Source of the DNA: Clostridia bacterium
GTDB lineage: Bacteria; Bacillota; Clostridia; UBA1381
Assembly: GCA_900751885.1 (NCBI GenBank)
Contig: CAADTH010000050.1
Coordinates: forward strand, 132,431 to 164,430
Length of the DNA stretch: 32,000 nucleotides
Direction of reading: 5' to 3'
Shown: positions 10,480 to 28,708 of the stretch, piece by piece
Layout of the letters: each line of letters begins with the position of its first letter
Numbering within the stretch: position 1 is the first letter of the stretch
Notes under the pieces: model-generated
The model's input: the letters and a program-made list of their open reading frames with translations, nothing else
The model's database searches: none
What the model was told of the DNA's origin: nothing
Program-made: the position numbers and the translations under genes

Positions 10480-10498
10480 AATAGAAAGGATAAGAAAC

Positions 10499-10840: not shown

Positions 10841-10870
10841 GGAACAGCCGAATTAGAAAAGAGGTGCATT

Positions 10871-11704
10871 ATGGAAGTTATATTAATTGCATTAATCAGT
10901 GCATTGCTTAGTGCCGCTTTACAATATGTAAATAATGTTTTAGTTACTATCGTACCAATCGCATTAAATGCAGAACAATATATGACAACTTTATTAGGTA
11001 ATACAGGATTTCAGGCAACTTTTGATTTATTATATAATTTTGGAATCAGTTTAATAGTATTAAAATTTTTGAAGCGAGGATTTGATACATATGTATGCTG
11101 GCAAGACGGAGACCCAAATTCAGACCCAATTAATCTTTTAGTGCAATTTCTAAAAGCTATTATTATAGCAACTGGATTTAAAATAATGTACGGTTGGATG
11201 GCAAGCATCGTACAGGATTTTTCAAACCAACTTTTGACAACCCTATCAGGTAGTTTAGATGATGGATTTGCGCAAGGCGTAATGGCAATGGCAAGTTTAA
11301 ACTTATTTAATGCCATCATAAGTCTAGTATTTTTCATTTGCTTTTTCTTTCTATATATAAAATTTTTAATGACTGGAATGGAATTGCTTGTAATGCGTTT
11401 AGGTTTACCAATAGCTTGTGTTGGCTTGCTGGAAAATGACAAAGGAGTTTTTGCGCCTTATATGAAGAAATTTTTTCAAAGTATGGCAACAATAATTGTT
11501 CAAATTGGTCTAACAAAACTATCTGTCGGCTTAATGATAAATGGTCATATATTTTGGGGAATTGCTGGAATGTTTCTTGCAATGAAAACGCCGAAATTCC
11601 TACAAGAGTTTATGATTACTTCTGGGGGTGGAAGTGGGATGAATACAATTTATCATACGACCCGATTGATTCAAATGGTTAAGTCAGCCGCAAAAAGTGG
11701 ATAG
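10871..11704 (+). CDS. Polytopic membrane protein, VirB6/TrbL-like T4SS channel component.
   Basis: SD AGAGGTG lies upstream of the ATG. There are about 6 predicted TM helices, the size is 277 aa, and the gene lies between the pilin-like gene and the VirB3/VirB4 genes. Confidence 0.5.
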   Translation: MEVILIALISALLSAALQYVNNVLVTIVPIALNAEQYMTTLLGNTGFQATFDLLYNFGISLIVLKFLKRGFDTYVCWQDGDPNSDPINLLVQFLKAIIIATGFKIMYGWMASIVQDFSNQLLTTLSGSLDDGFAQGVMAMASLNLFNAIISLVFFICFFFLYIKFLMTGMELLVMRLGLPIACVGLLENDKGVFAPYMKKFFQSMATIIVQIGLTKLSVGLMINGHIFWGIAGMFLAMKTPKFLQEFMITSGGGSGMNTIYHTTRLIQMVKSAAKSG

Positions 11705-11715
11705 GAGAATTAGTT

Positions 11716-11922
11716 ATGAATTTAGTTGATGATATATCAAGAATGTTAATATGGCTTATTCGTGCTGGTCTTACATTTCGAGTGTTATATTGCTGTTTTC
11801 GGTTAATTATGGCAGATGAAGAAGCAAATACATATAAGACAAGATTAAAGAATTCTCTTATATTTGCTGTGATTATAGAATTGGTATGGATAATTAAATC
11901 ATTAGTAATAAGTTATTTTTAA
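11716..11922 (+). CDS. Small membrane protein (68 aa).
   Basis: SD TAGGAGAA lies upstream of the ATG. Two hydrophobic segments are present. Function unknown. Confidence 0.45.
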   Translation: MNLVDDISRMLIWLIRAGLTFRVLYCCFRLIMADEEANTYKTRLKNSLIFAVIIELVWIIKSLVISYF

Positions 11923-11946
11923 CCTTGTGCGAATTTTGCACAAGGT
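11921..11946 (+). repeat. Copy 4 of the palindromic element: AACCTTGTGCGAATTTTGCACAAGGT.
   Basis: It begins inside the TAA stop (11920-11922). The stem is a perfect 9 bp (ACCTTGTGC/GCACAAGGT) with a 7-nt loop, followed by TTTT and then the SD of the next gene. Confidence 0.8.
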
Positions 11947-11966
11947 TTTTGAGTGGAGGTTATATT

Positions 11967-12293
11967 ATGGAAAATGAACAGCATCAAAAACTATATATGC
12001 CTAATAACGTTAAAACTCGTAGTGAATTTTTTAACGGTTTTGGGTTTACAGAATTATATCAAGCAATAGGAATTGTACTAATTGTTGGCGGTATATCAGT
12101 CCTAGCATTTTTAATTCATGGAAATTTACCTATACTGATATTATCTATATTAATTATCTGTGCCGTAGCGGTTACTATTCTTACAAAAGATGCAACAAAC
12201 CAAAGTGTTATTGATTACACAAAACATATGATACATTTTGCACATATTCAAAAAACATATCCATATCATTACAATCAGGAGGATTTCAAATGA
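11967..12293 (+). CDS. PrgI-family / VirB3-like T4SS membrane protein.
   Basis: The ATG at 11967 has SD GGAGG upstream, whereas the track start at 11925 lies inside the palindrome. YMPNNVKTRSEFFNGFGFTELYQAIGIVLIVGG followed by a second TM helix matches the PrgI-family pattern. Its stop overlaps the next start (ATGA). Confidence 0.65.
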   Translation: MENEQHQKLYMPNNVKTRSEFFNGFGFTELYQAIGIVLIVGGISVLAFLIHGNLPILILSILIICAVAVTILTKDATNQSVIDYTKHMIHFAHIQKTYPYHYNQEDFK

Positions 12294-12898
12294 AGTTATT
12301 TTCAAAAAAACAAAATGAAGAAGAAGTTAAAATACAGACAGCAAATGATTTTGTTAATATTAGAGATATAAAAGATAATATTTTATATACAAAAGATGGA
12401 TATATTTTTGCCTATATTCGTGTTAGTCCTATTGCTCTTGACCTTTTATCCAGTGCAGAAAAAAAAACTATAACACATAGCCTAACTACAGAAATGTCAG
12501 CAGAAAATAAACCATTTAAATTTTTAAGTATCTCGCGACCAGTTGATATAAGTAGTTTGGTAGATGATATGTATGATTCATATATGACGGCAGAAACACA
12601 AGCTCAAAAAGATATTTTAAAGAATGGGATTGATACTATCAATCATTTTGCGCTGAGTGGCGAAGTAATTGAACGACAATTCTATCATATCATATGGAAT
12701 ATTTATGATGATGATTCAGAAGAAACTTTGATGAATCGTGCGAATGAACTTTGTAATAAATATATAATGTGTGGTATTGATGCAAATTTGCTAAACCAGG
12801 TTGAAATTATACAACTATGCAATCTTTTTGCAAACCCATCATACAGTCACTTAGAGGATGGGAATGTTGAAACAACAATCCCACGGTTGGAGGAATAA
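12290..12898 (+). CDS. 202-aa protein resembling the extreme N-terminal segment of the roughly 800-aa Firmicute VirB4 ATPases (ConE/Orf16/CD1110 type), here a separate ORF.
   Basis: It is translationally coupled to prgI. The pattern FVNIRDIKDNILYTKDGYIFAYIRVSPIALDLLSSAEKK matches my recollection of VirB4 N-termini (i.dg.i...dg.y..il.v.piNf.l.s..E). Together, 202 aa plus 616 aa come close to a full-length VirB4. Confidence 0.55.
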   Translation: MKLFSKKQNEEEVKIQTANDFVNIRDIKDNILYTKDGYIFAYIRVSPIALDLLSSAEKKTITHSLTTEMSAENKPFKFLSISRPVDISSLVDDMYDSYMTAETQAQKDILKNGIDTINHFALSGEVIERQFYHIIWNIYDDDSEETLMNRANELCNKYIMCGIDANLLNQVEIIQLCNLFANPSYSHLEDGNVETTIPRLEE

Positions 12899-12899
12899 T

Positions 12900-14750
12900 A
12901 TGATAATATCAAAACATAAAAAACAAGAAACAATCCCTGTTAATAATTCATTATTAAATGTTGTAACACCTATTGGTCTGGAGTTTAAACGCTCCAGTTT
13001 TTTTATTGGCGAATTAATGTGCAAAATGTATGGAGTTATTAAATATCCTCAAGAAGTACCTATTGGTTGGTTATCAAAAGTTAATAACATTTCTTCAAGT
13101 ATTGTATGTCAGGTTTTTACTCCTGTTGATAATGCCGCATTGATAGAAAGTATTAGCCAAACAGTACGACAGAAAAGTGGTGAAGCTGAAAGCACACGTG
13201 ACCCTTTAGCAAGACAACGTGCATTAAAGTCTATTGAGGAAGGTGAACAAGTCATGAAGCAAATCGACCAAAATAATGAAACAGTTGGGTACATGTCTAA
13301 TGTTATAATGACAATGGGTAAGAATGAAAAACTGTTCACATCTGCTTGTAGAAAAACAGAAAGTATTCTTGCTGGTATTCATTGTAGAACTCGTGGTTTA
13401 GCAAATCTCCAAATTGAAGCTCTTAAAACACTTTCTCCATATTACGTGCCAGAAACTACTATTGGAAATATGTTGAATCGTGTTACTCCTGAATCAACAT
13501 ATGTTGGTGGATTCCCTTTTAGTTCATCATCATTTTCTGATGGACGAGGATATTATTTTGCTAAGGACTCTAGTGGTGGTATGGTAGCACTAGACCAATG
13601 GATACGAGCAGGTGACCGTACCAATTCTAATTGGGTAGTAATGGGGGTTGCAGGACAAGGTAAAAGTGCAACTACTAAGCATATAATCAGCGAAGAATAT
13701 GCACGTGGAACAAAAGTTATTGTTATTGACCCAGAAAGAGAATATAAAGATTTAACATATCTGTTAGAAGGAGATTGGATAGATGTTGGTGGTGGTTCTA
13801 AAGGACGTATAAATCCATTACAAATTAAACCTTTACCGATGGACGATGATGAAGAATCAGAAGATAAAGAATCAAATGATAATTTAAGATTAAATCCTAC
13901 TGGTTTAGGTGATTTGGCAATGCACTTAAAAACGCTCGATATATTTTTTAGTCTTTATCTACAGGATTTAGATGATATTCAAAAAGCTCTTTTAAAAGAC
14001 ACCTTGATAGAAATTTATCGTCAAAAAGGAATTGTATGGGAAACTAAAGTACAAAATATGACTAATGATATGTTTCCAATAATGACAGATTTATATAATG
14101 AACTTATAAAACGTAGCAATAATAAAAGTCTATCTAAACATGAATCCGTCGCATATCTTACTCTCTCTTGCTTGCTAAAAGACATTGCAGAAGGAAGTGA
14201 CCAATTTATGTGGAATGGTTTTACCACAATAAGTACTAATTCAAAATTTATTTGTCTTGATACTCACAATCTACAAAATGCTTCTGATGAGATAAAAAAA
14301 ACACAATACTTTAACATACTAACATGGGCATGGGAACAAATGGCACGTGATAGAAATGAAAAAGTGCTTCTTGTATGTGACGAAGCATATTTGCTTATTG
14401 ACCCTCGTGTACCGCAAAGTTTAGTGTTTTTAAGAAATGCCGCAAAACGAGCAAGAAAATATGAATCGGGTTTAATGATAATTAGCCATAGCGTGGTTGA
14501 TTTCCTCGACCCTGCTGTAAAAATGTATGGTCAGGCGTTATTAGATTTACCATGTTATAAATTACTGTTTGGATGCGATGGTCAAAATTTAAAAGAACTT
14601 GCAGATTTATATAATCTTACAGATGCCGAAAAGGAATTACTAAATGCAAAACGAAGAGCAGTTGCATTATTTGTCGTTGGTGCAAAACGATTAAGTATCA
14701 AATTTGATTTACAACATAAATTAAAATACATTTCTGGTGGTGGCAGATAG
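12900..14750 (+). CDS. virB4: VirB4-family T4SS ATPase (main body).
   Basis: The ATG at 12900 follows SD GGAGGAA and lies 1 nt after the stop of the preceding ORF, in a different frame. The N-domain motif is YPQEVPIGWLSKV. Walker A is GVAGQGKSATTK and Walker B is LLVCDEAYLLID. Confidence 0.9.
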   Translation: MIISKHKKQETIPVNNSLLNVVTPIGLEFKRSSFFIGELMCKMYGVIKYPQEVPIGWLSKVNNISSSIVCQVFTPVDNAALIESISQTVRQKSGEAESTRDPLARQRALKSIEEGEQVMKQIDQNNETVGYMSNVIMTMGKNEKLFTSACRKTESILAGIHCRTRGLANLQIEALKTLSPYYVPETTIGNMLNRVTPESTYVGGFPFSSSSFSDGRGYYFAKDSSGGMVALDQWIRAGDRTNSNWVVMGVAGQGKSATTKHIISEEYARGTKVIVIDPEREYKDLTYLLEGDWIDVGGGSKGRINPLQIKPLPMDDDEESEDKESNDNLRLNPTGLGDLAMHLKTLDIFFSLYLQDLDDIQKALLKDTLIEIYRQKGIVWETKVQNMTNDMFPIMTDLYNELIKRSNNKSLSKHESVAYLTLSCLLKDIAEGSDQFMWNGFTTISTNSKFICLDTHNLQNASDEIKKTQYFNILTWAWEQMARDRNEKVLLVCDEAYLLIDPRVPQSLVFLRNAAKRARKYESGLMIISHSVVDFLDPAVKMYGQALLDLPCYKLLFGCDGQNLKELADLYNLTDAEKELLNAKRRAVALFVVGAKRLSIKFDLQHKLKYISGGGR

Positions 14751-14787: not shown

Positions 14788-17700
14788 ATGAATAAACGAT
14801 TTACATCACTTTTACTGGTTTTTACTATTGTCATTTCTTTGGGAGCTAATGTAATGGCAAGTAACTACAATGATGTCCCTGATTCACATTGGGCTGCTGA
14901 ATATATTGAATTATTAACACAAAAAGGAATATTAAAAGGCACACCTAAAGGCGAATGTTTACCAGACCAAAATATCACACGTGCAGAATTATCTGCATTA
15001 ATATCACGTAATTATGACCAAGATGAATATGTTGATATGGCAGTTAATACCTTTTCTGATGTACTTGATACCCACTGGGCAAAAAAAGACATTGAACGGC
15101 TTGTTAAACACTCAGTTATATTGCCAAATGAATATAAAAATGGATTTTATCCAGACATAAATGCAAGCAGAATTGAAATGATACGTATGATAGTTCGCTG
15201 GCTAAATAAGGATAGTAACGTACCATCAAAAATGACCCCTACTGGATTTAGTGATGATATTGATTTATCACCTGAGGATAGAGGGTATATAAATGTTGCT
15301 CGTGATATTGGATTAATAAGTGGTTATCCTGATAATTCTTTAAAACCACAAAATCCCATAACACGTGCTGAAGTATTTAAAATATTATGTATTGGATTAA
15401 ATGAAAAATCCAAACCATCTTATTTTATTATTTTTGGTGGAAATAGTAGTGGCAGTGGCTCTCAAAAAACAGTGCCAAAGCCAACTGTAGAATTTGCGTT
15501 ATCTCCTTATGCACATACTGATACAGAAATTGAAGTATCTACAAAAAATAAAAATGTAAAAAGTATAATATGGCAAATAAGAAAATATGATAATGAACAA
15601 AAAAAATACAATAAGGTGGATATAAATAATGTTATAAATGGCTCACTAAATGACAGTGGAGGAACAATACGTTTTAACCAAAGTGGTAAATACGAAATTG
15701 TCGCTATTGCCAGTAATTCAAAAGGTACTGAATATGAATATAAAAAAGAAATTAATATTTATGATGTACCAACATTAACATTACAATTAAACGAAAATGA
15801 ATATATAGATAATGAAATCAACATTATTTTAACCAATAATATTGATTCATTAAATCATAATATTGATTGGTATATTACTGATGAAACAGGACAAAAACAA
15901 CACTATACAGAGTTTACTAATGGTGAACTGAGTAAAAACGGTGGTACAATAAAATTTAAAACAGATGGAAAGTACATTATATCTGCAAATTTAACTGATG
16001 AAACTAACAGAGTTTTTACCATTGAAAAAGCAATCACCATTTTCCCTATTCCTATAATTAATATTACAGCAAATGAAAAAGTTATGATAGATGAACACGT
16101 TCCAATTAATATTGTGCTAAATCATATTGGTGATAAAGAAATAAAATGGTTTATATCTAAAAACAATGATATAAAACCTTATAATGAATACGCAAAAGGA
16201 ATATTAAGTAATGACGGTGGTAGTATATACTTTGAAAATCAGGGACAGTATGAACTAATTGCGCAAGTAACGGATGAACTTAATAAACAATTTGAATACT
16301 CTACTAGTATAAAAGTTTATCCTATACCAATACTTAATTTTAATTTACCTGAAACAGCGCATACCGATTCAATAATTAATATCGAAAACAATTTTAATAA
16401 TATTGATGGTTTAGATGTTTGTTGGAAAATTCAAAAAGAATCATCTGAACCTACAGATTACACAGAATATGTCTCTGGAGAACTCTCAAATACTGGTGGA
16501 AAAATTGTTTTTAAAGAAGAAGGTGCTTATACATTAACTGCAAATATAGTAAATGAACTAGGGAAAACTTATTCTTTTAGCGATACGATTATTATATATC
16601 CAGTAATTTCCCCTATCTTATCAGTACCATCAGTGAGCCATATTGATTCAACGTTTCATATATCATTGTCTGATACTGAAAGACAAAATGTAGAATGGAA
16701 AATATCAAAAAATAATAGTGAGTTACAACCATATAATAATTTTACTGACAATATTTTATCTGTAAATGGTGGCAATATTCAATTAAAGCAAGATGGAAAG
16801 TATAAAATTGTTGCAATTATTACAGATGTCACAGGTAGACAATTTATCACTGAATCTACAATTATAATTTATCCTATTCCTACTGTCAATTTTGATATTC
16901 CGATATATGCACATACGGATACACAAATTGAAATTAATCCAATAACCACAAATATTGAGAATAACGAAATAACGTGGACTATTATTAAAGATGATATAGA
17001 GAAACCATATAATGAATATGTTACTGGTGAATTGCATCAAAATGGTGGTACAATCACCTTTTTAAATAATGGTACATACTCTATAAAAGCAACTTTTGAA
17101 GATGCTTCAGGACGTAAGTTTGAATCCTTAAAAACAATAAAAATATACACTATACCTATAGTTGAATTTGGCGAATTTGGATTACCTAATATAGCACACA
17201 CTGATACAAGTATTCTAATAAAACCTGAACTGACAAATATAGAAAATCTAAAAATTGAATGGTTGATTTCAAAAAATCAAACTGACCCATTACCATATAA
17301 TGAATATGTTGATGGGAGTTTAGAAAATACAGGTGGCACAATCAAGTTCAAGGATAAAGGTGAATATGAGTTGATTGCAATGATTACTGATGATGTAGGA
17401 CGAAAATACACATATAACTCTAACACAAAAATTTATCCAGTTCCTATAATAAATCTTAATGTACCAGATATAGGGCATACCGACAGTTTAATTAATATTA
17501 ATAATGATAATTCCGAATTAAACAACTTAGATATTATATGGAGTATGACTAAAGATGGTAGCACAGAACAAGATTATTCTATCTTTACATCAGGTAAACT
17601 AAATAATACAGGTGGTACAATTTCCATACTTCAAAAAGGTAATTATGTACTTATTGCAACCGTAATTGATGAAACTGGACGTGTTTTTTCCTCCTCAAGC

Positions 17701-20700
17701 AACTTAAAGATTTATCCAGTCCCAGATATATTAATATATGCACCTAAATCAGCTCATACCGACACACCAATCAATATTACAACAAAAACTAACGAACTTG
17801 ACAATTTGACCATAAAGTGGTCAATAAAAAATAATGATAATAATAGTGACATTGATTATTTTACCAATAATGGCGGCACTATACATCTTGAATCACAAGG
17901 AGAATATATAATTATCGCAACTGTAATTGATGAAACTGGACGGAGTTTTAAAAGTGAAACCCAAATAAAGATTTATCCTATACCTGATTTATCATTCGAT
18001 ATACCTCTATACTCTCATACTGATACCCAATTTTCTGTTATTACACATTTTTGTGATGTTAATAATACTGTTAGTTGGTATGTAAATGAAGAAAACCAAG
18101 TATTAAGTTCAAATGGCGGTACTCTATTATTAAGTCAAAAAGGAGACTATAATATAACCTCACAAGTAACAGACGATACTGGACGCACGTTTAAATATAC
18201 AAAATCTATAAACGTTTATCCAGTCCCAATAGTTAACTTTAGACGTGATAGTAACGCAGAGTTTGTATTACCCGAATATGGATATGTTAATCAAAGTATT
18301 ACAATCATACCAGAACTAAAAGAATTAAATGATTTATCAATAAAATGGTTAATATCAAAAGATGGAAAAGAAGCTAAAGACTATTCTGCATACGCACAAG
18401 GAATTATGACTGCTGACGGAGGAATTTTAACTTTTCCAAACACAGGTCAATACAATTTAATAGCTCAGATTTCCGATAAAGTAAATCGAGTATTTGAATA
18501 CACTGAATCTATTATCATAAATTCAACACCTTCATTGTCTTTTAATATGCCTGAACATAGTTACAAAGAAGAAAGTATTAATATTACTGCTGTGGGCGCA
18601 GAAAACAACACTTTTGAATGGAAAATATCAAAAGATAATAAAAATCCTCAACCTTATACAGAATATGTTGATGGGATACTAGAAACGAATGGAGGTTCTA
18701 TAAAATTTAAAGAAAGCGGAAATTATAATCTTATATTCACAGTAACAGACGAAGCTGGTAAGGTTTTTAGTTTTTCTAAACGAATTAAAATATTAGACAT
18801 TCCAAATGTTGAAATTACATTACCAGACAATACACACATTGGTGAAACCGTAAAAATAACACCTAAAATTGAACATGCTGATAATCTAAAAATACAATGG
18901 AAACTAAACAATAAACCATACCAATATTTTGCAAATGGCACATTATCAGATAATGGCGGTTCTATTGAATTTGTTATACCTGGGGAATACATTTTATCTG
19001 CAACAATGATTAATGAATACGGACGGGAATTTGTATACACTTCAAATATCATAAAAGTATATGATAATCTATATCCGTCTTTTATCTCCCCATTATACAG
19101 TTCTATAAATACAGATGTTAGAATCACTGTATTAGAGGGAAATAATATAAAGTGGACTATACAGTATAATAATGATGCAGAACAAGACTATAATAACGTA
19201 GTTGATGGTATGATTACTGATAATGGTGGTACAATCAGCTTCACTAAGGCTGGTAACTATACAATTATAGCTACAACAACCGATACAATCGGAAAAGAAT
19301 TTAAATATACTCAAAATATTAAAATTTATGACATACCTACAGTTACAATTAATTGTAATGAAAAATATCACGCCAATGAAGAAATTAATTTATTTACTGA
19401 CCTAACGAATATGGAAGGCTTAGAAATAAATTGGACTATCTCAAAAGATGGAAATGTTGCAGAAAATTATTTGAAATATGCTTCGGGAGTACTTACTAAA
19501 GATGGCGGTACTATTTTCATAAAAGAACCAGGAGAGTATAATATTATAGCATTAGTTACAGATAAATTAGGGATTTCACATGAATTTTCAAAAACAGTCC
19601 ATATAATAGATGTACCTTATATTGATTTAAATATGCCACAATCTGCTTTTATAAATGAGAATATTAATATTAAAGTTAATAATTATTCAAATGATAATAG
19701 CATAAACTGGTTGATTAAAAAAGGTGATGATACAGCACAAGATTTATTAACATATGCTGATGGTGTTTTAAATGAACAAGGTGGAACTATCAAATTTAAA
19801 TCAGAAGGACATTATACTATAATAGCAGAAATAACTGATTCATTAAATAGTAAACATCAATATTCAAAAGAAATTGATATTTTCCATAGTTCTTCTTTGA
19901 AATTAACAACCCCTCAATACAGTTATATCAATGCCAATATTAAAATATTAGTTGAAGCTAACAATCTTCAAAAAACATCTCTAAAATGGCAAATTTCAAG
20001 GGATAATGGAGAGCTTGAAAATTATATTACATACGCTAACGGAACACTAACAGACGATGGTGGTTCTATCTCATTTGATGCTCCTGGAATATATAAAGTT
20101 GTTGCAACTGGTTATGACCAACTTAATAATATTGTAACCTCTGAAGCTACAATCAATATTTTTGAACTACCCAATATAGGTATTACAATGCCGAGTACAG
20201 CACACACAAACAAAGCCGTAATAGTTGCTACTACTAATCAAAACACAGAAGATGCTACAGTTTCATGGTATATCTCTAAAGATGGGGATGAAGAACAGAT
20301 ATATACTAAATATGTTACAGGAGAGTTGAACAAAAACGGCGGGTATATTACATTCAATGAATCAGGAAGTTATACAGTTTTTGCAAAAGTAGTTGACAGG
20401 AACGGAAAAACATTTAAATACCATTCTACTATTACCATTTATGATAATCCAGAGATTGGTATTGATATAGTTTCGGAATCTTATATAAATAAAAGTATTA
20501 AAATACTAATTAATTCATCTGGTTTAAAAGACATAAGTTGGTCTATTGCAAAAAACGGAAAAAATGCAGAAAACTATTTAAAATATGCAACTGGAACATT
20601 AACAAATATCGGCGGTTCTATTTCATTTGATGAAGCAGGAACATATAAAATTATTGCTTCTTCTGTTGACGACACTGGTGAAAATCATATTGCTGAATCA

Positions 20701-22650
20701 ATAATAACTATTTATCATACACCATCTATTAATATTATTACTAAAGATGCTGATACGATTTATAATGATTTTGTAGTTGAAACTCAATTAAATGATGTTG
20801 ATGAATCAAGATACACGTATAAATGGTTTATTAGATATAATAATGGAGAAAAAATAAATATTGATAAATATGCAAGTACGAATTTTAATATTAATGGTGG
20901 TACACTTTCTTTTTACGAAAGCGGTAACTATACTATATATCTTGAACTAACAGATAATTTAGAAAATATTTTCTTATATGAAAAAAATATAAAAGTTGAT
21001 AATAAATCATCTGTTAATTTTACATTACAAGGAACAGGCTATATAGGAATTGAAAATAAGATAATTTCCTCTTTAAATGGAGATAACTTAACCATCGAAT
21101 GGTCAATAAGTAAAAATGGTAATACACGTCAACCTTATCTTTATTATGCTGATGGCATACTAAATAATGATGGTGGTTCAATAACTTTTGATAAAGTAGG
21201 GACTTATACTGTTTATGCTATTATCGTAGATAAATACGGAAACTCTTACATAACACAAAGACTCATTACAATAGAAGAATTACCGACTGCTAACGTTATT
21301 ATTCCTCCATACACACATACCGACACTACAATAACAGCAGTGGCTAATTCTGTTATTAGTCAAAGTGGGATAGAATGGTACGTTAAAGATACTCAGACTA
21401 ATAAAACACTTCCATATTCAAATTATTGTAAAGGGAATCTATCATCTTCTGGAGGAGAAATTAAATTTATTAATGCTGGATTTTATGAACTTATAGCAAG
21501 AGTTAAAGGAAGTGACGGCAAGACATTTGATTATAATGCACCTATTCATGTATACCCTACCCCAACCTTAGATACAAATGTTCCTACTTCTTTACACATA
21601 TGTGATTCTTTCTTTTTAAATCTTACTCCATTGAATACTTATCCTAATACAAGTGTAACATGGAGCGTTAAGAAAGATGGTTTAGATGTTGATAACTGGG
21701 ATTATATTTCTCAAAATAGCAATGGTTCTTTATATTTTTCAGAATTTGGGAACTATAAAATAACTGTTAATGTAAAAGATGAAGTTGGACGTATATTTGA
21801 ATTTATAAGCTATATTTTAGTATATAATATTAACCCTGATATGCCTACAGTACAAATTAATAAAACAAGAAATTATAAAAATAATAAATATTACGTCGAA
21901 CTCATTCCAAAAGCTACAGATTCAGATGGAGATTCTGTAACTTATGAGTATGAAAATAAACCTAATGACAACTATTACCCACTAGGTTATACATATGTAC
22001 ATGTTCGAGCAAAAGATATACATGGTGCATATTCTCCCTGGAAAACCGTTACAGTATATGTATCAAATGATTCTCCGTCAGCTCCAACGTTAACACGAAC
22101 TCCTGATAGCGCAAGCATAGAGCCTAATACACCAGTTATAATACAAGCAAGTGGTTCTGTTGACCCTGATGGTGACGCAATACACTATGTTTGGTCTGGT
22201 ATACGAAGTAATAATATCTATCCTTTAGGAAAAAATATTGTAACTTGTAAAGCCGTAGATAATGCTGGAGCAGAATCAAGCTCTACTGCAATGGTCTTTT
22301 TTGTAGCAAATGAAACACAAGGTGGCGGTATGGAACTTACAGGACCCGATTCAACTATTATTGAAGAAGGTATTGAAGGAGCTACTATTACTGGATATAC
22401 ATTTACTGTTCCTCAAGTTTCAGGTCATAATAGCAGTAATGATTTTGGCAGAATACGAGGATATAACATTCAAACAAAATCATGGGAGGAAATTGATTAT
22501 AAATCAACTAATAATGGTGTAGTAATGACCCAAACCCTAGAAAAAGGTAAATATAGCAAATTGGAATTTTATTACTATACAGACCATAACTGTATGTATA
22601 ACCATAGTAACATAACATATGACGTAAGTTTTGATTTTCCATCAAACTAA
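14788..22650 (+). CDS. Giant (2620-aa) secreted, SLH-anchored surface protein with about 23 tandem Ig/PKD-like modules; putative mating adhesin.
   Basis: The ATG at 14788 has SD GGAGG upstream. The signal peptide is MNKRFTSLLLVFTIVISLGANVMA. There are three SLH domains (about 14860-15405; motifs DVPDSHWAAEYIELL, FSDVLDTHWAKKDIERL, ITRAEVFKILC). The repeat array follows, then two DxDGD modules (TDSDGDSVTYEY, VDPDGDAIHYVW) and a terminal beta-rich domain. No LPXTG motif is present. Confidence 0.9.
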   Translation: MNKRFTSLLLVFTIVISLGANVMASNYNDVPDSHWAAEYIELLTQKGILKGTPKGECLPDQNITRAELSALISRNYDQDEYVDMAVNTFSDVLDTHWAKKDIERLVKHSVILPNEYKNGFYPDINASRIEMIRMIVRWLNKDSNVPSKMTPTGFSDDIDLSPEDRGYINVARDIGLISGYPDNSLKPQNPITRAEVFKILCIGLNEKSKPSYFIIFGGNSSGSGSQKTVPKPTVEFALSPYAHTDTEIEVSTKNKNVKSIIWQIRKYDNEQKKYNKVDINNVINGSLNDSGGTIRFNQSGKYEIVAIASNSKGTEYEYKKEINIYDVPTLTLQLNENEYIDNEINIILTNNIDSLNHNIDWYITDETGQKQHYTEFTNGELSKNGGTIKFKTDGKYIISANLTDETNRVFTIEKAITIFPIPIINITANEKVMIDEHVPINIVLNHIGDKEIKWFISKNNDIKPYNEYAKGILSNDGGSIYFENQGQYELIAQVTDELNKQFEYSTSIKVYPIPILNFNLPETAHTDSIINIENNFNNIDGLDVCWKIQKESSEPTDYTEYVSGELSNTGGKIVFKEEGAYTLTANIVNELGKTYSFSDTIIIYPVISPILSVPSVSHIDSTFHISLSDTERQNVEWKISKNNSELQPYNNFTDNILSVNGGNIQLKQDGKYKIVAIITDVTGRQFITESTIIIYPIPTVNFDIPIYAHTDTQIEINPITTNIENNEITWTIIKDDIEKPYNEYVTGELHQNGGTITFLNNGTYSIKATFEDASGRKFESLKTIKIYTIPIVEFGEFGLPNIAHTDTSILIKPELTNIENLKIEWLISKNQTDPLPYNEYVDGSLENTGGTIKFKDKGEYELIAMITDDVGRKYTYNSNTKIYPVPIINLNVPDIGHTDSLININNDNSELNNLDIIWSMTKDGSTEQDYSIFTSGKLNNTGGTISILQKGNYVLIATVIDETGRVFSSSSNLKIYPVPDILIYAPKSAHTDTPINITTKTNELDNLTIKWSIKNNDNNSDIDYFTNNGGTIHLESQGEYIIIATVIDETGRSFKSETQIKIYPIPDLSFDIPLYSHTDTQFSVITHFCDVNNTVSWYVNEENQVLSSNGGTLLLSQKGDYNITSQVTDDTGRTFKYTKSINVYPVPIVNFRRDSNAEFVLPEYGYVNQSITIIPELKELNDLSIKWLISKDGKEAKDYSAYAQGIMTADGGILTFPNTGQYNLIAQISDKVNRVFEYTESIIINSTPSLSFNMPEHSYKEESINITAVGAENNTFEWKISKDNKNPQPYTEYVDGILETNGGSIKFKESGNYNLIFTVTDEAGKVFSFSKRIKILDIPNVEITLPDNTHIGETVKITPKIEHADNLKIQWKLNNKPYQYFANGTLSDNGGSIEFVIPGEYILSATMINEYGREFVYTSNIIKVYDNLYPSFISPLYSSINTDVRITVLEGNNIKWTIQYNNDAEQDYNNVVDGMITDNGGTISFTKAGNYTIIATTTDTIGKEFKYTQNIKIYDIPTVTINCNEKYHANEEINLFTDLTNMEGLEINWTISKDGNVAENYLKYASGVLTKDGGTIFIKEPGEYNIIALVTDKLGISHEFSKTVHIIDVPYIDLNMPQSAFINENINIKVNNYSNDNSINWLIKKGDDTAQDLLTYADGVLNEQGGTIKFKSEGHYTIIAEITDSLNSKHQYSKEIDIFHSSSLKLTTPQYSYINANIKILVEANNLQKTSLKWQISRDNGELENYITYANGTLTDDGGSISFDAPGIYKVVATGYDQLNNIVTSEATINIFELPNIGITMPSTAHTNKAVIVATTNQNTEDATVSWYISKDGDEEQIYTKYVTGELNKNGGYITFNESGSYTVFAKVVDRNGKTFKYHSTITIYDNPEIGIDIVSESYINKSIKILINSSGLKDISWSIAKNGKNAENYLKYATGTLTNIGGSISFDEAGTYKIIASSVDDTGENHIAESIITIYHTPSINIITKDADTIYNDFVVETQLNDVDESRYTYKWFIRYNNGEKINIDKYASTNFNINGGTLSFYESGNYTIYLELTDNLENIFLYEKNIKVDNKSSVNFTLQGTGYIGIENKIISSLNGDNLTIEWSISKNGNTRQPYLYYADGILNNDGGSITFDKVGTYTVYAIIVDKYGNSYITQRLITIEELPTANVIIPPYTHTDTTITAVANSVISQSGIEWYVKDTQTNKTLPYSNYCKGNLSSSGGEIKFINAGFYELIARVKGSDGKTFDYNAPIHVYPTPTLDTNVPTSLHICDSFFLNLTPLNTYPNTSVTWSVKKDGLDVDNWDYISQNSNGSLYFSEFGNYKITVNVKDEVGRIFEFISYILVYNINPDMPTVQINKTRNYKNNKYYVELIPKATDSDGDSVTYEYENKPNDNYYPLGYTYVHVRAKDIHGAYSPWKTVTVYVSNDSPSAPTLTRTPDSASIEPNTPVIIQASGSVDPDGDAIHYVWSGIRSNNIYPLGKNIVTCKAVDNAGAESSSTAMVFFVANETQGGGMELTGPDSTIIEEGIEGATITGYTFTVPQVSGHNSSNDFGRIRGYNIQTKSWEEIDYKSTNNGVVMTQTLEKGKYSKLEFYYYTDHNCMYNHSNITYDVSFDFPSN
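15478..21828 (+). repeat. About 23 tandem, diverged, roughly 276-nt (92-aa) coding repeats within the adhesin gene.
   Basis: The recurrent protein pattern is (I/V)P..(F).P..AHTD..I.I....N...L.I.W.I.K......Y..Y..G.L...GG.I.F...G.Y.LIA...D..GR.F.....I.IYP. I counted the modules by eye in the translation. The copies are too diverged to form long identical DNA repeats. Confidence 0.85.
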
Positions 22651-22656
22651 GATAAT

Positions 22657-22688
22657 AAAAGCGGCTATCAACTGATAGCCGCTTTTTA
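22657..22688 (+). terminator. Rho-independent terminator after the adhesin gene.
   Basis: AAAA GCGGCTATC AACT GATAGCCGC TTTTT. The stem is a perfect 9 bp and GC-rich, with a 4-nt loop, a T5 tail and a flanking A-run. Confidence 0.8.
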
Positions 22689-22689: not shown

Positions 22690-23472
22690 TTGGAGGTGAG
22701 TAAAATAGACCCTGCAACTGCAAAGATAATAATACAAATTGTAATACAGTCTTTAAAGGATGAAGAAACACGCAAACGTTTACTTATGGTTATACTTGCG
22801 CCAGTTGTAACTACCTTGTTATTGATAACACTAATATTTTATTTATTAACATCACCAATAGAAGCATTAGGAGCATTATTTAATAATGATGAACATACAC
22901 AATACGTAAATGATTTGCAAACAAACTATGGTTTTTATGGTGATGGTGCAGTAATTGACATTACAGGAGAATATCGTGAAAGTGAAATGCCATTATTTAT
23001 TCAATGGGATAATAGATGGGGAATGTACCCCTATGGTCGTAGTGGAACTATCGCATCATCAGCTTGCGGTCCAACATCAATGGCTATGATAGTTGTTGCA
23101 TTTACAGGAAAAACAAATGTGAACCCTAAAACTATGGCAGATTGGAGTGTCGCACATGGGCATCGGGTAGAAGGAGTAGGAACAGCATGGTCATTTTTCC
23201 CAGATGCGGCACAAAGCTATGGATTTAATTGTTCACAGTTATCCGTTAATGCATCAGATATTTCAAATTCTTTACGAAATAACAAACCAGTAATTGCAAG
23301 TATGGGACCAGGACATTTTACGAGAGGAGGTCACTTTATCGTTTTACGTGGTATTACTAGTGATGGAAAGATACTCGTAAATGACCCTAACAGTCGTGAA
23401 AAAAGTGAAAAAGCATGGGATATAAGCATTATTGTCAATGAAGCAAAAGCGGCGTGGAGTTTTTATAAATAA
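22690..23472 (+). CDS. Membrane-anchored C39-like (papain-fold) cysteine peptidase; probable T4SS-associated cell-wall hydrolase.
   Basis: An N-terminal TM helix (VILAPVVTTLLLITLIFYLL) is followed by the catalytic-Cys context SSACGPTSMAMIV and the His context GGHFIVLRG...VNDPN. The start is uncertain. The track uses TTG at 22690, but the strong SD GGAGGTGA (22692-22699) is best spaced for the in-frame ATA at 22705. The next ATG (22786) has no SD. Confidence 0.65.
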   Translation: MEVSKIDPATAKIIIQIVIQSLKDEETRKRLLMVILAPVVTTLLLITLIFYLLTSPIEALGALFNNDEHTQYVNDLQTNYGFYGDGAVIDITGEYRESEMPLFIQWDNRWGMYPYGRSGTIASSACGPTSMAMIVVAFTGKTNVNPKTMADWSVAHGHRVEGVGTAWSFFPDAAQSYGFNCSQLSVNASDISNSLRNNKPVIASMGPGHFTRGGHFIVLRGITSDGKILVNDPNSREKSEKAWDISIIVNEAKAAWSFYK

Positions 23473-24867: not shown

Positions 24868-25578
24868 ATGAAGATAAAACTAAATACAAAATTTTTAAAA
24901 AATAAATATGTGCTATCTACCCTATGTATGATTCTATCTGCCATTATCGCTTTTATTATTGTACCTAACAAAGAAAAGCACAAATATGATACTATTAAAA
25001 TAGTACGAACCAACCAGACTATAGAAGCCAACACTTTAATCAATGAAAGTATGTTAAAGACTATAGAGGTTATGCCTTTAAATCTTCCAGATGATATAAT
25101 TACAGATATTAATACAATTATAGGTAAATATACCACTGTACCACTGTTACCATCTGATAACTTAGTATCAAATAAATTTGCAGACACCTCTTCTTTAACA
25201 AAAGCACTATTCAAAAATGAAGATGGTAAATTAGCTGTATCTGTAAGTATCAAGAATTTAGCCGCAAGTGTATCAGGTAAATTGTTACCTGGTGATGTTG
25301 TATCTGTCTACACGTATAATACAGAAGATAAATCATTGATTGAATATGAAGATTTAAAACACGTTGAAATTTTGGCTATAACCAACGATAAAGGTGATGA
25401 TTTAAATAGTGATATATCTAGTAATAATGAAGATAATAATGATAATATTCCTGCTACAATAACGTTATCCGTAAACCAGAATCAAGCAAAAGAATTAATC
25501 AAAGCTGAAAACAGTGGGAATATACATATTGTATTTGCTGGTCGTGGAGAATATGGTAAAAAATTATTAAATCCTTAA
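24868..25578 (+). CDS. cpaB: CpaB/RcpC-like Flp pilus assembly protein (N-terminal TM plus SAF domain).
   Basis: The ATG immediately follows the previous stop. The TM helix is VLSTLCMILSAIIAFIIV. SAF-like region: IVRTNQTIEANTLINESMLKTIEV...IGKYTTVPLLPSDNLVSNKF. The C-terminal beta-rich region ends ...NIHIVFAGRG. Confidence 0.7.
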   Translation: MKIKLNTKFLKNKYVLSTLCMILSAIIAFIIVPNKEKHKYDTIKIVRTNQTIEANTLINESMLKTIEVMPLNLPDDIITDINTIIGKYTTVPLLPSDNLVSNKFADTSSLTKALFKNEDGKLAVSVSIKNLAASVSGKLLPGDVVSVYTYNTEDKSLIEYEDLKHVEILAITNDKGDDLNSDISSNNEDNNDNIPATITLSVNQNQAKELIKAENSGNIHIVFAGRGEYGKKLLNP

Positions 25579-25602
25579 CCTTGTGCGAAAATTGCACAAG
25601 GT
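25577..25602 (+). repeat. Copy 5 of the palindromic element: AACCTTGTGCGAAAATTGCACAAGGT.
   Basis: It begins inside the TAA stop (25576-25578). The stem is a perfect 9 bp with a 7-nt loop. It lies inside the Tad block, and no clean T-run follows. Confidence 0.8.
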
Positions 25603-25630
25603 CTTATTATTTAAGAAAGTAGGTATTAGT

Positions 25631-26371
25631 ATGGGAAAAATAATTGCAATTTACGGCGCACCTGGGAGCGGAAAAACGACTATTGCGTGTAATTTAGCAT
25701 ACGCATTATCAAAGAAAATGACTACAGGTGTGTTACAAACAAATATTTATTACGCTTCAATACAACATTTTTTCGGTATGGAAATTAAAAAATCTAAAGA
25801 TTTATCAACAGCATTGTTAGGATATGGAAAAGAAGATTTGTCAAAATGTTTTACTCCACATCCTCAAAATAATAATCTATATATATTATCACCTAGTAAT
25901 ACTTATGATTGTCTTGCATTGGCAGATGATAAAAATGGTTTAGATGGAGAAACTGCAAAAAATATCATTTTAGAACTCAAAGATATGTTCGATTACTTAA
26001 TTGTAGATTGTACACCAGATATAAATGATGCTCTCGCTATTTATAGTTTAATAAATTCAGAGAAGATTGTTAACATTATCAAACCTAATATACAAGGTAT
26101 GGCATTTGCAACAAGCTATCAATCATTATTCACAGCTCTCGAATTTAGCGATAAAAAAATAATACATGTGATTAATAATGATAAAAACTATATTGGAATC
26201 ACAACAATTCAGAAAATATTAAATGTACCTTCCTCTTTATGTATACCACATCACAAAGATGCTGAAACTGCTGAAAATACAGGAATTCCACTTTATACAT
26301 ATAATAATAAATTTACAACATCTATTAATACTATTATTGATGTTATTATAGGAGGTACAGAAATTGAGTAA
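25631..26371 (+). CDS. ParA/MinD-superfamily ATPase (CpaE/TadZ-like) with an intact P-loop.
   Basis: The ATG at 25631 is preferred because the track start (GTG 25583) lies inside the palindrome. Walker A is IAIYGAPGSGKTTIACNLAYAL and the Walker B-like segment is YLIVDCTPD. Confidence 0.7.
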   Translation: MGKIIAIYGAPGSGKTTIACNLAYALSKKMTTGVLQTNIYYASIQHFFGMEIKKSKDLSTALLGYGKEDLSKCFTPHPQNNNLYILSPSNTYDCLALADDKNGLDGETAKNIILELKDMFDYLIVDCTPDINDALAIYSLINSEKIVNIIKPNIQGMAFATSYQSLFTALEFSDKKIIHVINNDKNYIGITTIQKILNVPSSLCIPHHKDAETAENTGIPLYTYNNKFTTSINTIIDVIIGGTEIE

Positions 26372-28701: not shown

Positions 28702-28708
28702 AAGTGAG

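What the first reader, a model, noticed from the sequence alone, without database searches (positions are those of the whole stretch)
14788..22650. A giant SLH-anchored protein with 23 modules sits in the middle of the T4SS operon
A 2620-aa secreted protein is encoded between virB4 and the wall-hydrolase gene. It has three N-terminal SLH domains, giving non-covalent anchoring to secondary cell-wall polymer, and no LPXTG sorting signal. About 23 diverged 92-aa Ig/PKD-like modules follow, then two DxDGD-containing modules and a distinct terminal domain.

Known Gram-positive conjugation adhesins, such as PrgB-type aggregation substances, are LPXTG-anchored. An SLH-anchored stalk that projects a tip domain tens of nanometres from the cell is a different solution, and it also restricts the likely host range to bacteria with SLH-binding wall polymers.

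The modules are diverged at the DNA level, which would protect the array from recombinational collapse.
Basis: partly seen in the sequence, partly recalled or inferred. Interest (0 to 1): 0.65.

Follow-up and report, generated by a model that had tools for sequence, protein, structure and literature searches.

The report
Giant wall-anchored stalk protein of conjugative element
A 2620-residue surface protein (wall anchor, 23-bead stalk, highly conserved end domain) sits in the DNA-transfer genes of a Clostridia-type mobile element and is the longest known member of a widespread, unstudied family that probably holds mating cells together.

Summary
The ORF at 14788-22650 encodes 2620 aa:
- a Sec signal peptide;
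- three SLH domains (Pfam E 8.5e-25);
- exactly 23 Ig-like modules of 87-96 aa, 31% identical as protein and 49% as DNA;
- two DxDGD PKD-like modules;
- a 110-aa all-beta end domain;
- no LPXTG signal.

It is not a one-off. 232 loci in species-representative genomes, almost all Clostridia, encode the same architecture, always co-oriented inside conjugative elements. Typical members have 4-11 modules, so the window's copy is the longest found.

The end domain is the most conserved segment of the whole element: 65% identity, against 40% for CpaF and 53% for VirD4. It matches no Pfam or NCBIfam family. SLH is not a defining feature, because six members use a membrane anchor plus a disordered linker instead.

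The most likely function is a donor-surface adhesin that stabilises mating pairs and works alongside the pilus. This is inferred and untested. I rate it a new variant of a known kind, of moderate interest.

The parts
14788..14859 (+). Sec-type signal peptide (aa 1-24, predicted cleavage after VMA)
   Evidence: Sequence inspection. It is the only N-terminal hydrophobic segment. A GGAGG ribosome-binding site lies upstream of ATG 14788.
14860..15420 (+). Three SLH domains (aa ~25-211), each with a TRAE-like motif (ITRAE, ASRIE, ITRAE). They give non-covalent anchoring to the cell wall.
   Evidence: Pfam PF00395, 86.9 bits, E 8.5e-25, 3 stretches. Motifs were read from the translation.
15421..15480 (+). 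Short Gly/Ser-rich linker (aa 212-231)
   Evidence: Translation.
15481..21837 (+). Stalk of 23 diverged Ig/PKD-like modules of 87-96 aa (aa 232-2350)
   Evidence: Module HMM gives 23 hits. AlphaFold2 of modules 7-8 has pLDDT 90.5, with Ig-tandem matches in the PDB. Pfam PKD scores 34.3 bits for the whole protein.
21838..22311 (+). Two DxDGD-containing PKD/cadherin-like modules (aa 2351-2428 and 2429-2508), probably calcium-binding
   Evidence: Motif positions. AlphaFold2 domains 1 and 2. Weak Pfam hits to Sde0182_C, Cadherin_4, K319L-like_PKD, HYR and PKD. Profile hit to the ColH PKD domain, E 0.05.
22318..22647 (+). Conserved 110-aa all-beta end ('tip') domain (aa 2511-2620) with no described family
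   Evidence: AlphaFold2 domain 3. No Pfam or NCBIfam hit. 65% mean identity to 87 relatives. 37 of 109 positions are at least 98% conserved. Only 81 clusters were found among 1.84 billion representatives.
22657..22686 (+). 13-bp-stem hairpin followed by U5, directly after the stop codon. It is terminator-like or an mRNA-stabilising structure.
   Evidence: Pattern scan. RNA fold gives -22 kcal/mol, z = -5.9. Sequence.
8917..14750 (+). Upstream T4SS block: VirD4 coupling protein, T4SS-pilin-like membrane protein, TrbL_4 (VirB6-like), PrgI-like, TraC/TrsD-like protein and VirB4-like ATPase
   Evidence: Pfam, NCBIfam, precomputed Pfam on the source contig.
22690..23472 (+). Peptidase_C39_2 papain-like cysteine peptidase. 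It is the presumed wall-remodelling enzyme; a related element has NlpC/P60 in this role.
   Evidence: Pfam E 7.4e-22. NLPC_P60 in L005.
24868..30876 (+). Downstream Tad-like (type IVc) pilus block: RcpC/CpaB, ParA/TadZ-like, T2SSE/CpaF-like ATPase, two TadB/C-like membrane proteins, DUF6133 small protein, DUF4320 and a 155-aa ORF. The prepilin peptidase (Peptidase_A24) lies just past the window end.
   Evidence: Pfam. Gene calls on the source contig.

Best explanation
The gene encodes a fibrillar adhesin displayed on the donor cell and belonging to the transfer apparatus of a Clostridia-type conjugative element.

**Proposed mechanism.** All steps are inferred from sequence and context.
1. The protein is exported by Sec and its signal peptide is cleaved.
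2. It is held at the cell wall by three N-terminal SLH domains.
3. A rod of 25 beta-sandwich beads (23 stalk modules plus two calcium-type PKD-like modules) holds the conserved C-terminal domain roughly 100 nm from the wall. This assumes about 4 nm per Ig-like domain (my knowledge).
4. The end domain binds a ligand that does not vary across Clostridia, most plausibly a wall glycan or peptidoglycan-associated structure on the recipient.
5. This forms or stabilises mating pairs while the element's Tad-like pilus makes or shortens the contact and the VirB4/VirD4 channel transfers DNA.

**Shown here:** the domain architecture, the folds, the conserved linkage to transfer genes, and the exceptional conservation of the end domain.

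**Inferred:** surface display, ligand binding and the role in mating.
For: **Architecture and folds**
- Anchor, stalk and end domain are supported.
- Polarity: relatives replace the signal peptide and SLH with an N-terminal membrane anchor plus a long disordered linker. The N-terminus is therefore the cell-proximal end.

**Linkage to transfer genes**
- In 80 species-representative loci, plus the loci fetched separately, the gene sits inside transfer modules.
- 67 of 80 have at least 2 Tad-type genes within 10 kb.
- 17 of 80 have T4SS or relaxase genes within 10 kb.
- 744 of 744 recognised neighbour genes are on the same strand.
- The gene occupies at least five different slots:
  - VirB4-[G]-C39
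  - TraC-like-[G]-VirB4
  - relaxase-[G]-VirD4
  - DUF6133-[G]-TrbL
  - MTase-[G]-YodL-SpoVG-pilus genes
- It is therefore retained through rearrangements rather than carried as neighbouring cargo.

**Conservation of the end domain**
- Identity between the window and its relatives is 65% for the tip. It is 53% for VirD4, 51% for TrbL, 40% for CpaF and 35% for RcpC.
- 37 of 109 tip positions are at least 98% conserved. These include E, H, D, N, W, H and C residues, as expected of a binding or active site.

**Fold resemblance.** Foldseek places the C-terminal trio nearest PKD-CBM44, sialidase Ig-CBM32, the adhesin SiiE and S-layer proteins.

**Precedent.** Conjugation operons of Gram-positive plasmids do encode adhesins needed for efficient mating, namely PrgB and TIEpLS20 (PMC8092201). 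One tip-bearing relative lies next to a TED/SpaA adhesin and a sortase on a mobile element.
Against: - No experiment exists for any family member, and I found no paper on it.
- An adhesin that recognises recipients might be expected to vary at its tip. Here the tip is the most conserved part. That fits a universal ligand, but equally an element-encoded partner or an enzymatic role.
- The tip domain also occurs internally in ordinary chromosomal SLH surface proteins with no transfer genes nearby (P0104/L092). The domain itself is therefore not specific to conjugation.
- The Foldseek matches of the three-domain model are weak (TM about 0.3), so the lectin-like reading of the tip is only suggestive.
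- A terminator-like hairpin separates the gene from the downstream genes.
Confidence: 0.55

Rival explanations
1. The protein is an accessory of the Tad-like pilus rather than of the T4SS. The conserved end domain would bind the element's own pilus (pilin or minor pilins), for example to dock or guide the fibre, or to capture a partner cell's pilus. The surface rod and the pilus would then act as one adhesion device.
For: - In most relatives the gene is directly upstream of, or inside, the pilus gene block (DUF6133, Peptidase_A24, RcpC, TadZ, CpaF, TadB/C, DUF4320), while VirB4 is more than 10 kb away.
- On Alkaliphilus plasmid pB6464, which PLSDB types as non-mobilizable, two tip-bearing proteins lie just downstream of a T2SSE/T2SSF pilus cluster with no T4SS gene annotated in the stretch.
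- Extreme conservation of the tip would be expected for an intra-element protein-protein contact.
Against: - The pilus proteins themselves are much less conserved than the tip (RcpC 35%, DUF4320 35%, TadB/C 31-34%). A co-evolving partner would be expected to track it.
- The tip also occurs in a chromosomal SLH protein with no pilus genes nearby.
- No interaction was tested.
Confidence: 0.17
2. The protein is a host-benefit colonisation factor carried by the element as cargo, that is, an adhesin for biofilm, substrate or mucus. It is unrelated to DNA transfer itself.
For: - Large SLH-anchored Ig-repeat proteins are common Clostridial surface proteins.
- The tip occurs in non-mobile chromosomal SLH proteins.
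- The PKD-PKD-beta-sandwich end resembles carbohydrate-binding ends of glycoside hydrolases and the PKD modules of collagenases.
Against: - The gene is embedded among core transfer genes on the same strand, with gaps of tens of bases. It is not in the accessory region.
- It is retained across element lineages from at least a dozen Clostridial families and very different habitats: gut, dechlorinating consortia, subsurface, sediments.
Confidence: 0.13
3. The protein is a surface- or entry-exclusion device. The tall, conserved rod on donor cells would recognise the same protein or pilus on other donors and prevent redundant mating, or sterically regulate contact as PrgA does for PrgB.
For: - A highly conserved tip would suit self-recognition.
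- The gene lies in the transfer operon.
- Exclusion proteins are standard parts of conjugative systems (established knowledge: TraT, PrgA).
Against: - Exclusion specificity normally diverges between related elements. Here the tip is nearly invariant across elements that would then all exclude each other.
- There is no similarity to PrgA, TraT or TraS.
Confidence: 0.07

Closest known systems
PrgB / aggregation substance of Enterococcus faecalis pCF10 (also Asa1, and CluA of the Lactococcus sex factor)
   Same: A large secreted surface protein encoded in a Gram-positive conjugation gene cluster. It is thought to bring donor and recipient together (PMC8092201).
   Different: - PrgB is anchored covalently through a C-terminal LPXTG signal and presents an N-proximal lectin-like adhesin domain.
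- The window protein has the opposite polarity: an N-terminal non-covalent SLH anchor and a C-terminal end domain.
- It has no LPXTG, no Pfam similarity to PrgB domains, and a 23-module Ig-like stalk.
TIEpLS20 (p34) of Bacillus subtilis plasmid pLS20
   Same: An adhesin gene inside the conjugation operon, with a stalk of Ig-like (CnaB) domains that holds an adhesive domain away from the cell. It is not sortase-anchored and is needed for efficient mating in liquid (PMC8092201).
   Different: - TIEpLS20's adhesive module is an N-terminal thioester domain, and its anchoring mode is unknown.
- The window protein has no thioester domain, a defined SLH anchor, PKD-like rather than CnaB modules, and is about four times longer.
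Fibrillar adhesins with N-terminal anchors (for example Salmonella SiiE, and SLH-anchored S-layer or surface proteins such as Sap and SbsB)
   Same: Tandem Ig-like beads, calcium-type DxDGD motifs and an N-terminal cell attachment. These proteins are among the Foldseek matches.
   Different: - They are chromosomal virulence or S-layer proteins with no link to DNA transfer.
- The window protein's end domain belongs to none of their families.
Periscope proteins (variable-length surface rods with near-identical DNA repeats)
   Same: Repeat number differs widely between family members, from 4 to 23. Some relatives do carry recent duplications: P0006 module pairs reach 93% identity and P0007-type modules reach 61-81%.
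   Different: In the window copy no module pair exceeds 49% protein identity or 59% DNA identity, and the longest shared DNA word is 20 nt. Length here is fixed rather than switchable.
TraN/OmpA-type mating-pair stabilisation alongside the F pilus in Gram-negative conjugation
   Same: The proposed division of labour is the same: a filament for first contact, plus a separate surface protein that secures the junction. This analogy rests on established knowledge.
   Different: There is no sequence or fold relationship. The envelope architecture differs, and the filament here is a Tad-like type IV pilus rather than a VirB2-type conjugative pilus.

Membership tests
SLH-domain cell-wall-anchored proteins | One to three SLH domains (PF00395) above the curated threshold | tested here: met
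   86.9 bits against a cut-off of 20.8, E 8.5e-25, three stretches at aa ~25-211.
SLH-domain cell-wall-anchored proteins | Secretion signal that places the SLH domains outside the membrane | tested here: met
   The N-terminal n-h-c region ends in VMA|S, and it is the only N-terminal hydrophobic segment. This was judged by inspection; no dedicated predictor was available.
SLH-domain cell-wall-anchored proteins | Host makes the pyruvylated secondary cell-wall polymer (CsaB pathway) that SLH binds | not testable with these tools
   The host is unknown, and only about 10 kb beyond the window could be read.
LPXTG sortase-anchored aggregation substances (PrgB type) | C-terminal LPXTG motif, hydrophobic helix and charged tail | tested here: not met
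   The C-terminus reads ...YDVSFDFPSN, with no motif within the last 400 aa and no C-terminal hydrophobic window.
LPXTG sortase-anchored aggregation substances (PrgB type) | PrgB-type lectin-like adhesin domain | tested here: not met
   No such Pfam family appears among the hits.
PKD / Ig-like repeat stalk | Beta-sandwich Ig-like fold of the repeated unit | tested here: met
   AlphaFold2 of modules 7-8 has pLDDT 90.5. Foldseek matches titin, contactin and cadherin Ig tandems with E 1e-8 to 1e-6.
PKD / Ig-like repeat stalk | Match to the Pfam PKD model (PF00801) | tested here: inconclusive
   The whole-protein score of 34.3 bits exceeds the 23.5 cut-off, but no single stretch passes on its own. 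Modules carry the W...GG...GxYxhxhxhxD motif.
Fibrillar adhesins (anchor + repeated stalk + adhesive domain) | Cell anchor and stalk of tandem repeats | tested here: met
Fibrillar adhesins (anchor + repeated stalk + adhesive domain) | A recognised adhesive or ligand-binding domain at the distal end | tested here: inconclusive
   The distal domain is well folded and highly conserved. It has no family assignment and only weak CBM/lectin-like structural neighbours. Binding was not tested.
Thioester-domain (TIE) conjugation adhesins such as TIEpLS20 | Thioester domain (TED) and CnaB stalk | tested here: not met
   No TED or CnaB hit in Pfam.
Periscope proteins | Near-identical tandem DNA repeats that allow rapid length change | tested here: not met
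   DNA identity is 49% on average and 59% at most, the longest shared word is 20 nt, and TRF finds no array.
Conserved component of a conjugative transfer module | Co-oriented and contiguous with T4SS genes, and retained in related elements | tested here: met
   In the window, a 37-nt gap follows VirB4. In relatives: 80 loci, 744 of 744 neighbours co-oriented, several insertion slots.
Conserved component of a conjugative transfer module | Required for transfer | not testable with these tools
   This needs genetics.

The most novel reading that the evidence does not exclude
Clostridial conjugative elements of this type use a three-part mating apparatus that has not been described:
- a Tad-like type IV pilus;
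- a VirB4/VirD4 channel;
- a wall-anchored rod of adjustable length.

The rod's end domain is a new, near-invariant fold family. It would recognise a universal Clostridial envelope structure, or the partner's pilus, and so set which cells can be mated. The 23-module rod in this window would be an adaptation to an unusually thick surface coat of its host.
Probability: 0.3. Interest if true: 0.75.

Novelty: new variant of a known kind. Interest (0 to 1): 0.55.

Why it matters
How Gram-positive donors find and hold recipients is poorly understood. Only PrgB and TIEpLS20 have been studied in any depth (PMC8092201).

This family offers a third solution, different in anchoring and polarity, that is spread across many anaerobic Clostridia of the gut and environment. 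Those organisms carry much horizontal gene flow but are rarely studied genetically.

The finding gives concrete handles:
- an end domain more conserved than the element's motor ATPases, which is a candidate target for blocking transfer and a marker for finding such elements in metagenomes;
- natural variants with 4 to 23 stalk modules and three anchoring modes, which are ready-made material for testing whether reach and anchoring set mating efficiency;
- a consistent pairing with a Tad-like pilus, which raises the testable idea that type IV pili take part in Gram-positive conjugation.

Tried and rejected
**Searches that found nothing or failed**
- blastn of the T4SS block and tblastn of TrbL_4 against PLSDB plasmids gave no match. 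This element type is essentially absent from curated plasmids.
- tblastn of the giant protein against plasmids found only SLH-level hits, plus one C-terminal match (Alkaliphilus pB6464) that became a useful lead.
- The first attempt to scan genomes with the 37-sequence C-terminal alignment failed for lack of a conserved stretch. A tighter 9-sequence alignment worked.
- Looking up the window's first gene to walk upstream along the contig found no record.

**Inconclusive structure and profile searches**
- Foldseek of the three-domain C-terminal model against PDB and BFVD gave only generic multi-domain beta-sandwich matches (TM about 0.2-0.4).
- A profile search of PDB sequences found only a marginal ColH PKD hit for the DxDGD module and nothing for the tip.

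**Literature**
- Searches for Tad plus conjugation in Gram-positives, for SLH plus conjugation, and for DUF4320 found nothing on this family.
- One search (pXO16/SLH) was badly framed and wasted.
- I could not confirm that the 337-kb source contig is a 'Hodor' megaplasmid with a captured ICE-type transfer system (PMC12934698). No supplementary files are held.

**Ideas rejected**
- Periscope-type length switching in this copy.
- A sortase or LPXTG anchor.
- A thioester adhesin.
- A universal terminator after the gene. The hairpin is present in only some lineages.
Full report
**1. What is in the sequence**

The window is about 30% G+C and almost all long ORFs lie on the + strand. The gene order is as follows (Pfam, NCBIfam, gene calls on the source contig):
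- an SNF2/ResIII helicase;
- a Toprim/DUF3991 primase;
- a NikA/MobC accessory protein;
- a PF03432 relaxase;
- the VirD4 coupling protein;
- a T4SS-pilin-like membrane protein;
- TrbL_4 (VirB6-like);
- a PrgI-like protein;
- a TraC/TrsD-like protein;
- a VirB4-like ATPase (12858-14750);
- the giant ORF;
- a Peptidase_C39_2 protein (22690-23472);
- a 398-aa unknown protein;
- a Tad-like pilus block: RcpC/CpaB, a ParA/TadZ-like ATPase, a T2SSE/CpaF-like ATPase, two TadB/C-like membrane proteins, a DUF6133 small protein, DUF4320 and a 155-aa ORF.

A Peptidase_A24 prepilin peptidase, an SSB and a RepA_N gene follow just past the window end.

**2. The giant protein**

*Start and export.* Translation from ATG 14788 gives 2620 aa. 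A GGAGG lies upstream, and two independent annotations use this start. The N-terminus is a typical Sec signal...GANVMA|SNY.

*Anchor.* Pfam finds three SLH domains (86.9 bits, E 8.5e-25).

*Stalk.*
- An HMM built from the repeats finds exactly 23 contiguous modules, aa 232-2350, of 87-96 aa.
- They share the pattern W-x-I ... GG-x-I-x-F ... G-x-Y-x-I-x-A-x-V-x-D.
- They average 31% protein identity (15-48%) and 49% codon-aligned DNA identity (maximum 59%).
- No two share an exact DNA word longer than 20 nt, and Tandem Repeats Finder sees nothing.
- AlphaFold2 of modules 7-8, using the window's own module pairs as the alignment, gives pLDDT 90.5 and two beta-sandwiches in tandem.
- Foldseek places them with titin, contactin and cadherin Ig tandems and with the S-layer proteins SbsB and Sap.

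*C-terminal region.*
- The last 270 aa fold, at pLDDT 89.8, into three all-beta domains.
- Two are about 80 aa and carry DSDGD and DPDGD motifs. They have weak PKD, cadherin, HYR and Sde0182_C similarity and a marginal match to the calcium-binding PKD domains of collagenase ColH.
- The third is the 110-aa end domain, which hits nothing in Pfam or NCBIfam.

*No sorting signal.* There is no LPXTG-type sorting signal and no C-terminal hydrophobic tail.

**3. It is a family, and the family lives in transfer modules**

*Size of the family.*
- A search of 5.8 billion proteins found 17 full-length relatives at 32-40% identity, from Dehalobacter, Desulfitobacterium, Desulfosporosinus, Clostridiaceae and others.
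- A scan of one genome per species with the conserved C-terminus found 232 loci. I kept 80, nearly all Clostridia: Lachnospiraceae, Oscillospiraceae, Peptococcaceae, Desulfitobacteriaceae, Anaerovoracaceae and more.

*Gene neighbourhoods.* I annotated these loci with the window's own proteins and proteins from two relatives.
- 67 of 80 have at least two Tad-type genes within 10 kb.
- 17 of 80 have T4SS or relaxase genes within 10 kb.
- All 744 recognised neighbours are on the same strand as the gene.
- A locus with no recognised neighbour (L013) still has the SNF2 helicase and Toprim primase typical of these elements.

*Position of the gene.* It occupies different slots in different lineages:
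- VirB4-[G]-C39 (the window);
- TraC-like-[G]-HicAB-VirB4 (L005);
- relaxase-[G]-VirD4;
- DUF6133-[G]-TrbL-PrgI-Peptidase_A24-RcpC;
- most often, methyltransferase-[G]-YodL-SpoVG-DUF6133-Peptidase_A24-RcpC-TadZ-CpaF-TadB-TadC-DUF4320.

In these elements the T4SS and Tad-like genes are interleaved into one transfer region, and the rod protein is a constant member. This argues against casual cargo.

**4. What varies and what does not**

*Stalk length.*
- Module number in 73 complete genes from species representatives is 4-11, with modes at 9 and 7. Length is 856-1567 aa, median 1347.
- Metagenomic relatives reach 15 and 19 modules.
- The window's 23 modules make it the longest protein carrying this end domain among 1.84 billion representative proteins.
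- Its array is old. No module pair exceeds 49% identity. Modules 1, 4 and 6-14 are colinear with modules 1, 4 and 6-14 of the 19-module relative. The extra modules lie among positions 15-20.
- Other members show recent tandem duplication. P0006 has pairs up to 93% identical, and the 11-module group has pairs at 61-81%. The family therefore changes length by duplication followed by divergence.

*Anchor.* It comes in three forms:
- a cleavable signal plus three SLH domains (the window);
- an N-terminal membrane helix plus SLH plus a Pro/Thr linker;
- in 6 of 73 members, a membrane helix plus a 150-200-aa Ser/Pro/Thr/Gly-rich linker with no SLH.

Desulfosporosinus metallidurans strain OL carries one copy of each kind (L061 and L032).

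*End domain.* It is the opposite of variable.
- Identity between the window and its relatives is 65% (56-73%) for the tip and 50% for the DxDGD modules.
- It is 37% for SLH, 53% for VirD4, 51% for TrbL, 40% for CpaF, 35% for RcpC and 25% for TadZ.
- In 66 distinct tip sequences, 37 of 109 positions are at least 98% conserved. These include E2526, H2547, D2552, N2560, W2566, N2576, E2593, H2600, C2602 and N2608.
- An exhaustive phmmer search found only 81 clusters containing the domain, with no distant relatives.
- In a few proteins the domain is internal and followed by other Ig-like domains.
- One such protein is chromosomal, among envelope genes (L092). Another lies on a mobile element beside a sortase and a thioester/SpaA adhesin (L093).

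**5. How it most likely works**

The anatomy is that of a fibrillar adhesin with its anchor at the N-terminus. Proposed steps:
1. Sec export.
2. Non-covalent wall binding through SLH.
3. A rod of 25 beta-sandwich beads, about 100 nm if extended. This is inferred from roughly 4 nm per Ig-like domain.
4. A conserved distal domain.

Given the constant linkage to transfer genes, I think the most likely role is formation or stabilisation of mating pairs by the donor. The Tad-like pilus would provide initial contact or retraction, and the VirB4/VirD4 channel would transfer the DNA. The near-invariance of the tip across elements from very different Clostridia implies an invariant ligand. That ligand could be a common envelope glycan or peptidoglycan-linked structure, or a protein of the element itself.

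The closest structural neighbours of the C-terminal trio are PKD-CBM44, the Ig-CBM32 of a sialidase, the adhesin SiiE and S-layer proteins. This leans towards carbohydrate binding, but the matches are weak.

Rivals:
- a pilus accessory whose tip contacts the pilus. This is favoured by gene adjacency and by the Alkaliphilus plasmid, where tip-bearing proteins follow a pilus cluster with no T4SS gene annotated in the stretch. It is disfavoured by the much lower conservation of the pilus proteins;
- a colonisation adhesin carried as cargo;
- a surface-exclusion device.

None can be excluded without experiments.

**6. Other points about the locus**

A 13-bp-stem hairpin followed by U5 begins 7 nt after the stop codon (22657-22686; -22 kcal/mol, z = -5.9). 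A GGAGG for the next gene follows. The gene may therefore end a transcription unit, or the hairpin may protect the 3' end of a very long mRNA. Similar hairpins follow the gene in some lineages but not in the majority class, where the next gene starts within about 25-35 nt. So 'in the middle of the T4SS operon' is better put as 'at the junction of the T4SS and pilus blocks'.

**7. Comparison with what is known**

- PrgB-type aggregation substances are LPXTG-anchored with an N-proximal adhesin. This protein fails that membership test.
- TIEpLS20 of pLS20 is the nearest functional precedent. It is an adhesin in a conjugation operon, has an Ig-like stalk, is not sortase-anchored, and is needed for mating in liquid (PMC8092201). 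Its adhesive unit is a thioester domain, which is absent here.
- Periscope proteins share length variation, but not the diverged DNA of this copy.
- I found no publication on this family or on Clostridial elements that combine a T4SS with a Tad-like pilus. Public annotations say only 'S-layer homology domain-containing protein'.
- A 2026 preprint describes >300-kb 'Hodor' megaplasmids, two of which captured ICE-type transfer systems with a PF03432 relaxase, MobC, VirD4, VirB4 and VirB6 (PMC12934698). The window's contig is 337 kb and could be of that kind, but I could not verify it.

**8. Verdict**

Architecture, topology and the link to conjugation stand. Uniqueness, 'all known ones are LPXTG' and the host-range inference need correction, and the partnership with a Tad-like pilus was missed.
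- Novelty: a new variant of a known kind, namely a conjugation-linked fibrillar adhesin with reversed polarity, an SLH anchor and an undescribed, exceptionally conserved end domain.
- Interest: moderate, 0.55. The family is widespread, unstudied and experimentally approachable, but its function is still inferred.

Noticed in passing
window 24868-30876 (and about 1.5 kb past the window end, L091 12642-13052): A complete Tad-like (type IVc) pilus gene set sits directly downstream of the T4SS block: RcpC, TadZ-like, CpaF-like, two TadB/C-like proteins, DUF6133, DUF4320 and a prepilin peptidase. In related elements the pilus and T4SS genes are interleaved. This suggests a type IV pilus takes part in Gram-positive conjugation.
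   Followed up: partly
window 22657-22686: A perfect 13-bp-stem hairpin with a U5 tail begins 7 nt after the giant gene's stop codon (-22 kcal/mol, z -5.9). It is a possible terminator or attenuator between the T4SS and pilus blocks. Comparable hairpins occur after the gene in only some lineages.
   Followed up: partly
window 12290-12898 and 12858-14750: VirB4 appears split. A 202-aa TraC/TrsD-like protein matches the N-terminal part of VirB4/TcpF-type ATPases. It overlaps by 41 nt the start of the 630-aa ATPase ORF, which carries the P-loop domains.
   Followed up: no
window 22690-23472: The 'wall hydrolase' is a Peptidase_C39_2 papain-like cysteine peptidase, not the NlpC/P60 or CHAP enzyme usual in Gram-positive T4SS. 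The related element L005 has NLPC_P60 instead. The start codon of this gene is uncertain (TTG 22690 or GTG 22696).
   Followed up: no
window 31132-31971; L005 2756-3610; L093 9043-9873 and 17737-18783: A secreted Cu_amine_oxidN1-domain protein recurs in these elements near the pilus genes or the rod gene. It may be another surface component of the same apparatus.
   Followed up: no
source contig (JGI 3300056264 Ga0252367_00007, 337,289 bp; ENA ERZ27263483 k119_8913, 221,293 bp): The identical gene lies on contigs of 221-338 kb. A 2026 preprint (PMC12934698) reports >300-kb 'Hodor' megaplasmids, two of which captured ICE-type transfer systems with the same gene families. If this is one of them, the very long rod might be needed to reach past the plasmid's own giant surface proteins. 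This is unverified.
   Followed up: partly
L032 and L061 (Desulfosporosinus metallidurans strain OL): One strain carries two copies of the family, one with SLH domains and one with a membrane anchor plus a disordered linker and no SLH. Anchor type is therefore not dictated by the host alone.
   Followed up: partly
L009 (Oscillibacter valericigenes Sjm18-20, 7750-11287 and 16999-18204): The family gene is broken into 760-aa and 428-aa ORFs, and an IS110-type transposase sits inside the pilus operon. This looks like a decaying copy of the element.
   Followed up: no
P0006 (1679 aa, JGI metagenome): This relative has 13 modules, many 75-93% identical to each other, so it has undergone recent tandem expansion. 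That contrasts with the fully diverged array in the window.
   Followed up: partly
L001 (Alkaliphilus sp. B6464 plasmid pB6464, 8073-17713): Three adjacent large surface proteins lie just downstream of a pilus ATPase/platform cluster, on a plasmid typed as non-mobilizable. They are an fn3 protein of 1078 aa, a DUF5057 protein of 1542 aa and a 520-aa protein. The first two carry the tip domain and the third a DxDGD-module match. The tip domain is thus linked to pili outside conjugation.
   Followed up: partly
window 172-4137: A 1321-aa SNF2/ResIII helicase with a C-terminal DUF6329 opens the element. A 1395-aa counterpart with DUF6908 occupies the same position in L013. Its role in transfer is unknown.
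   Followed up: no
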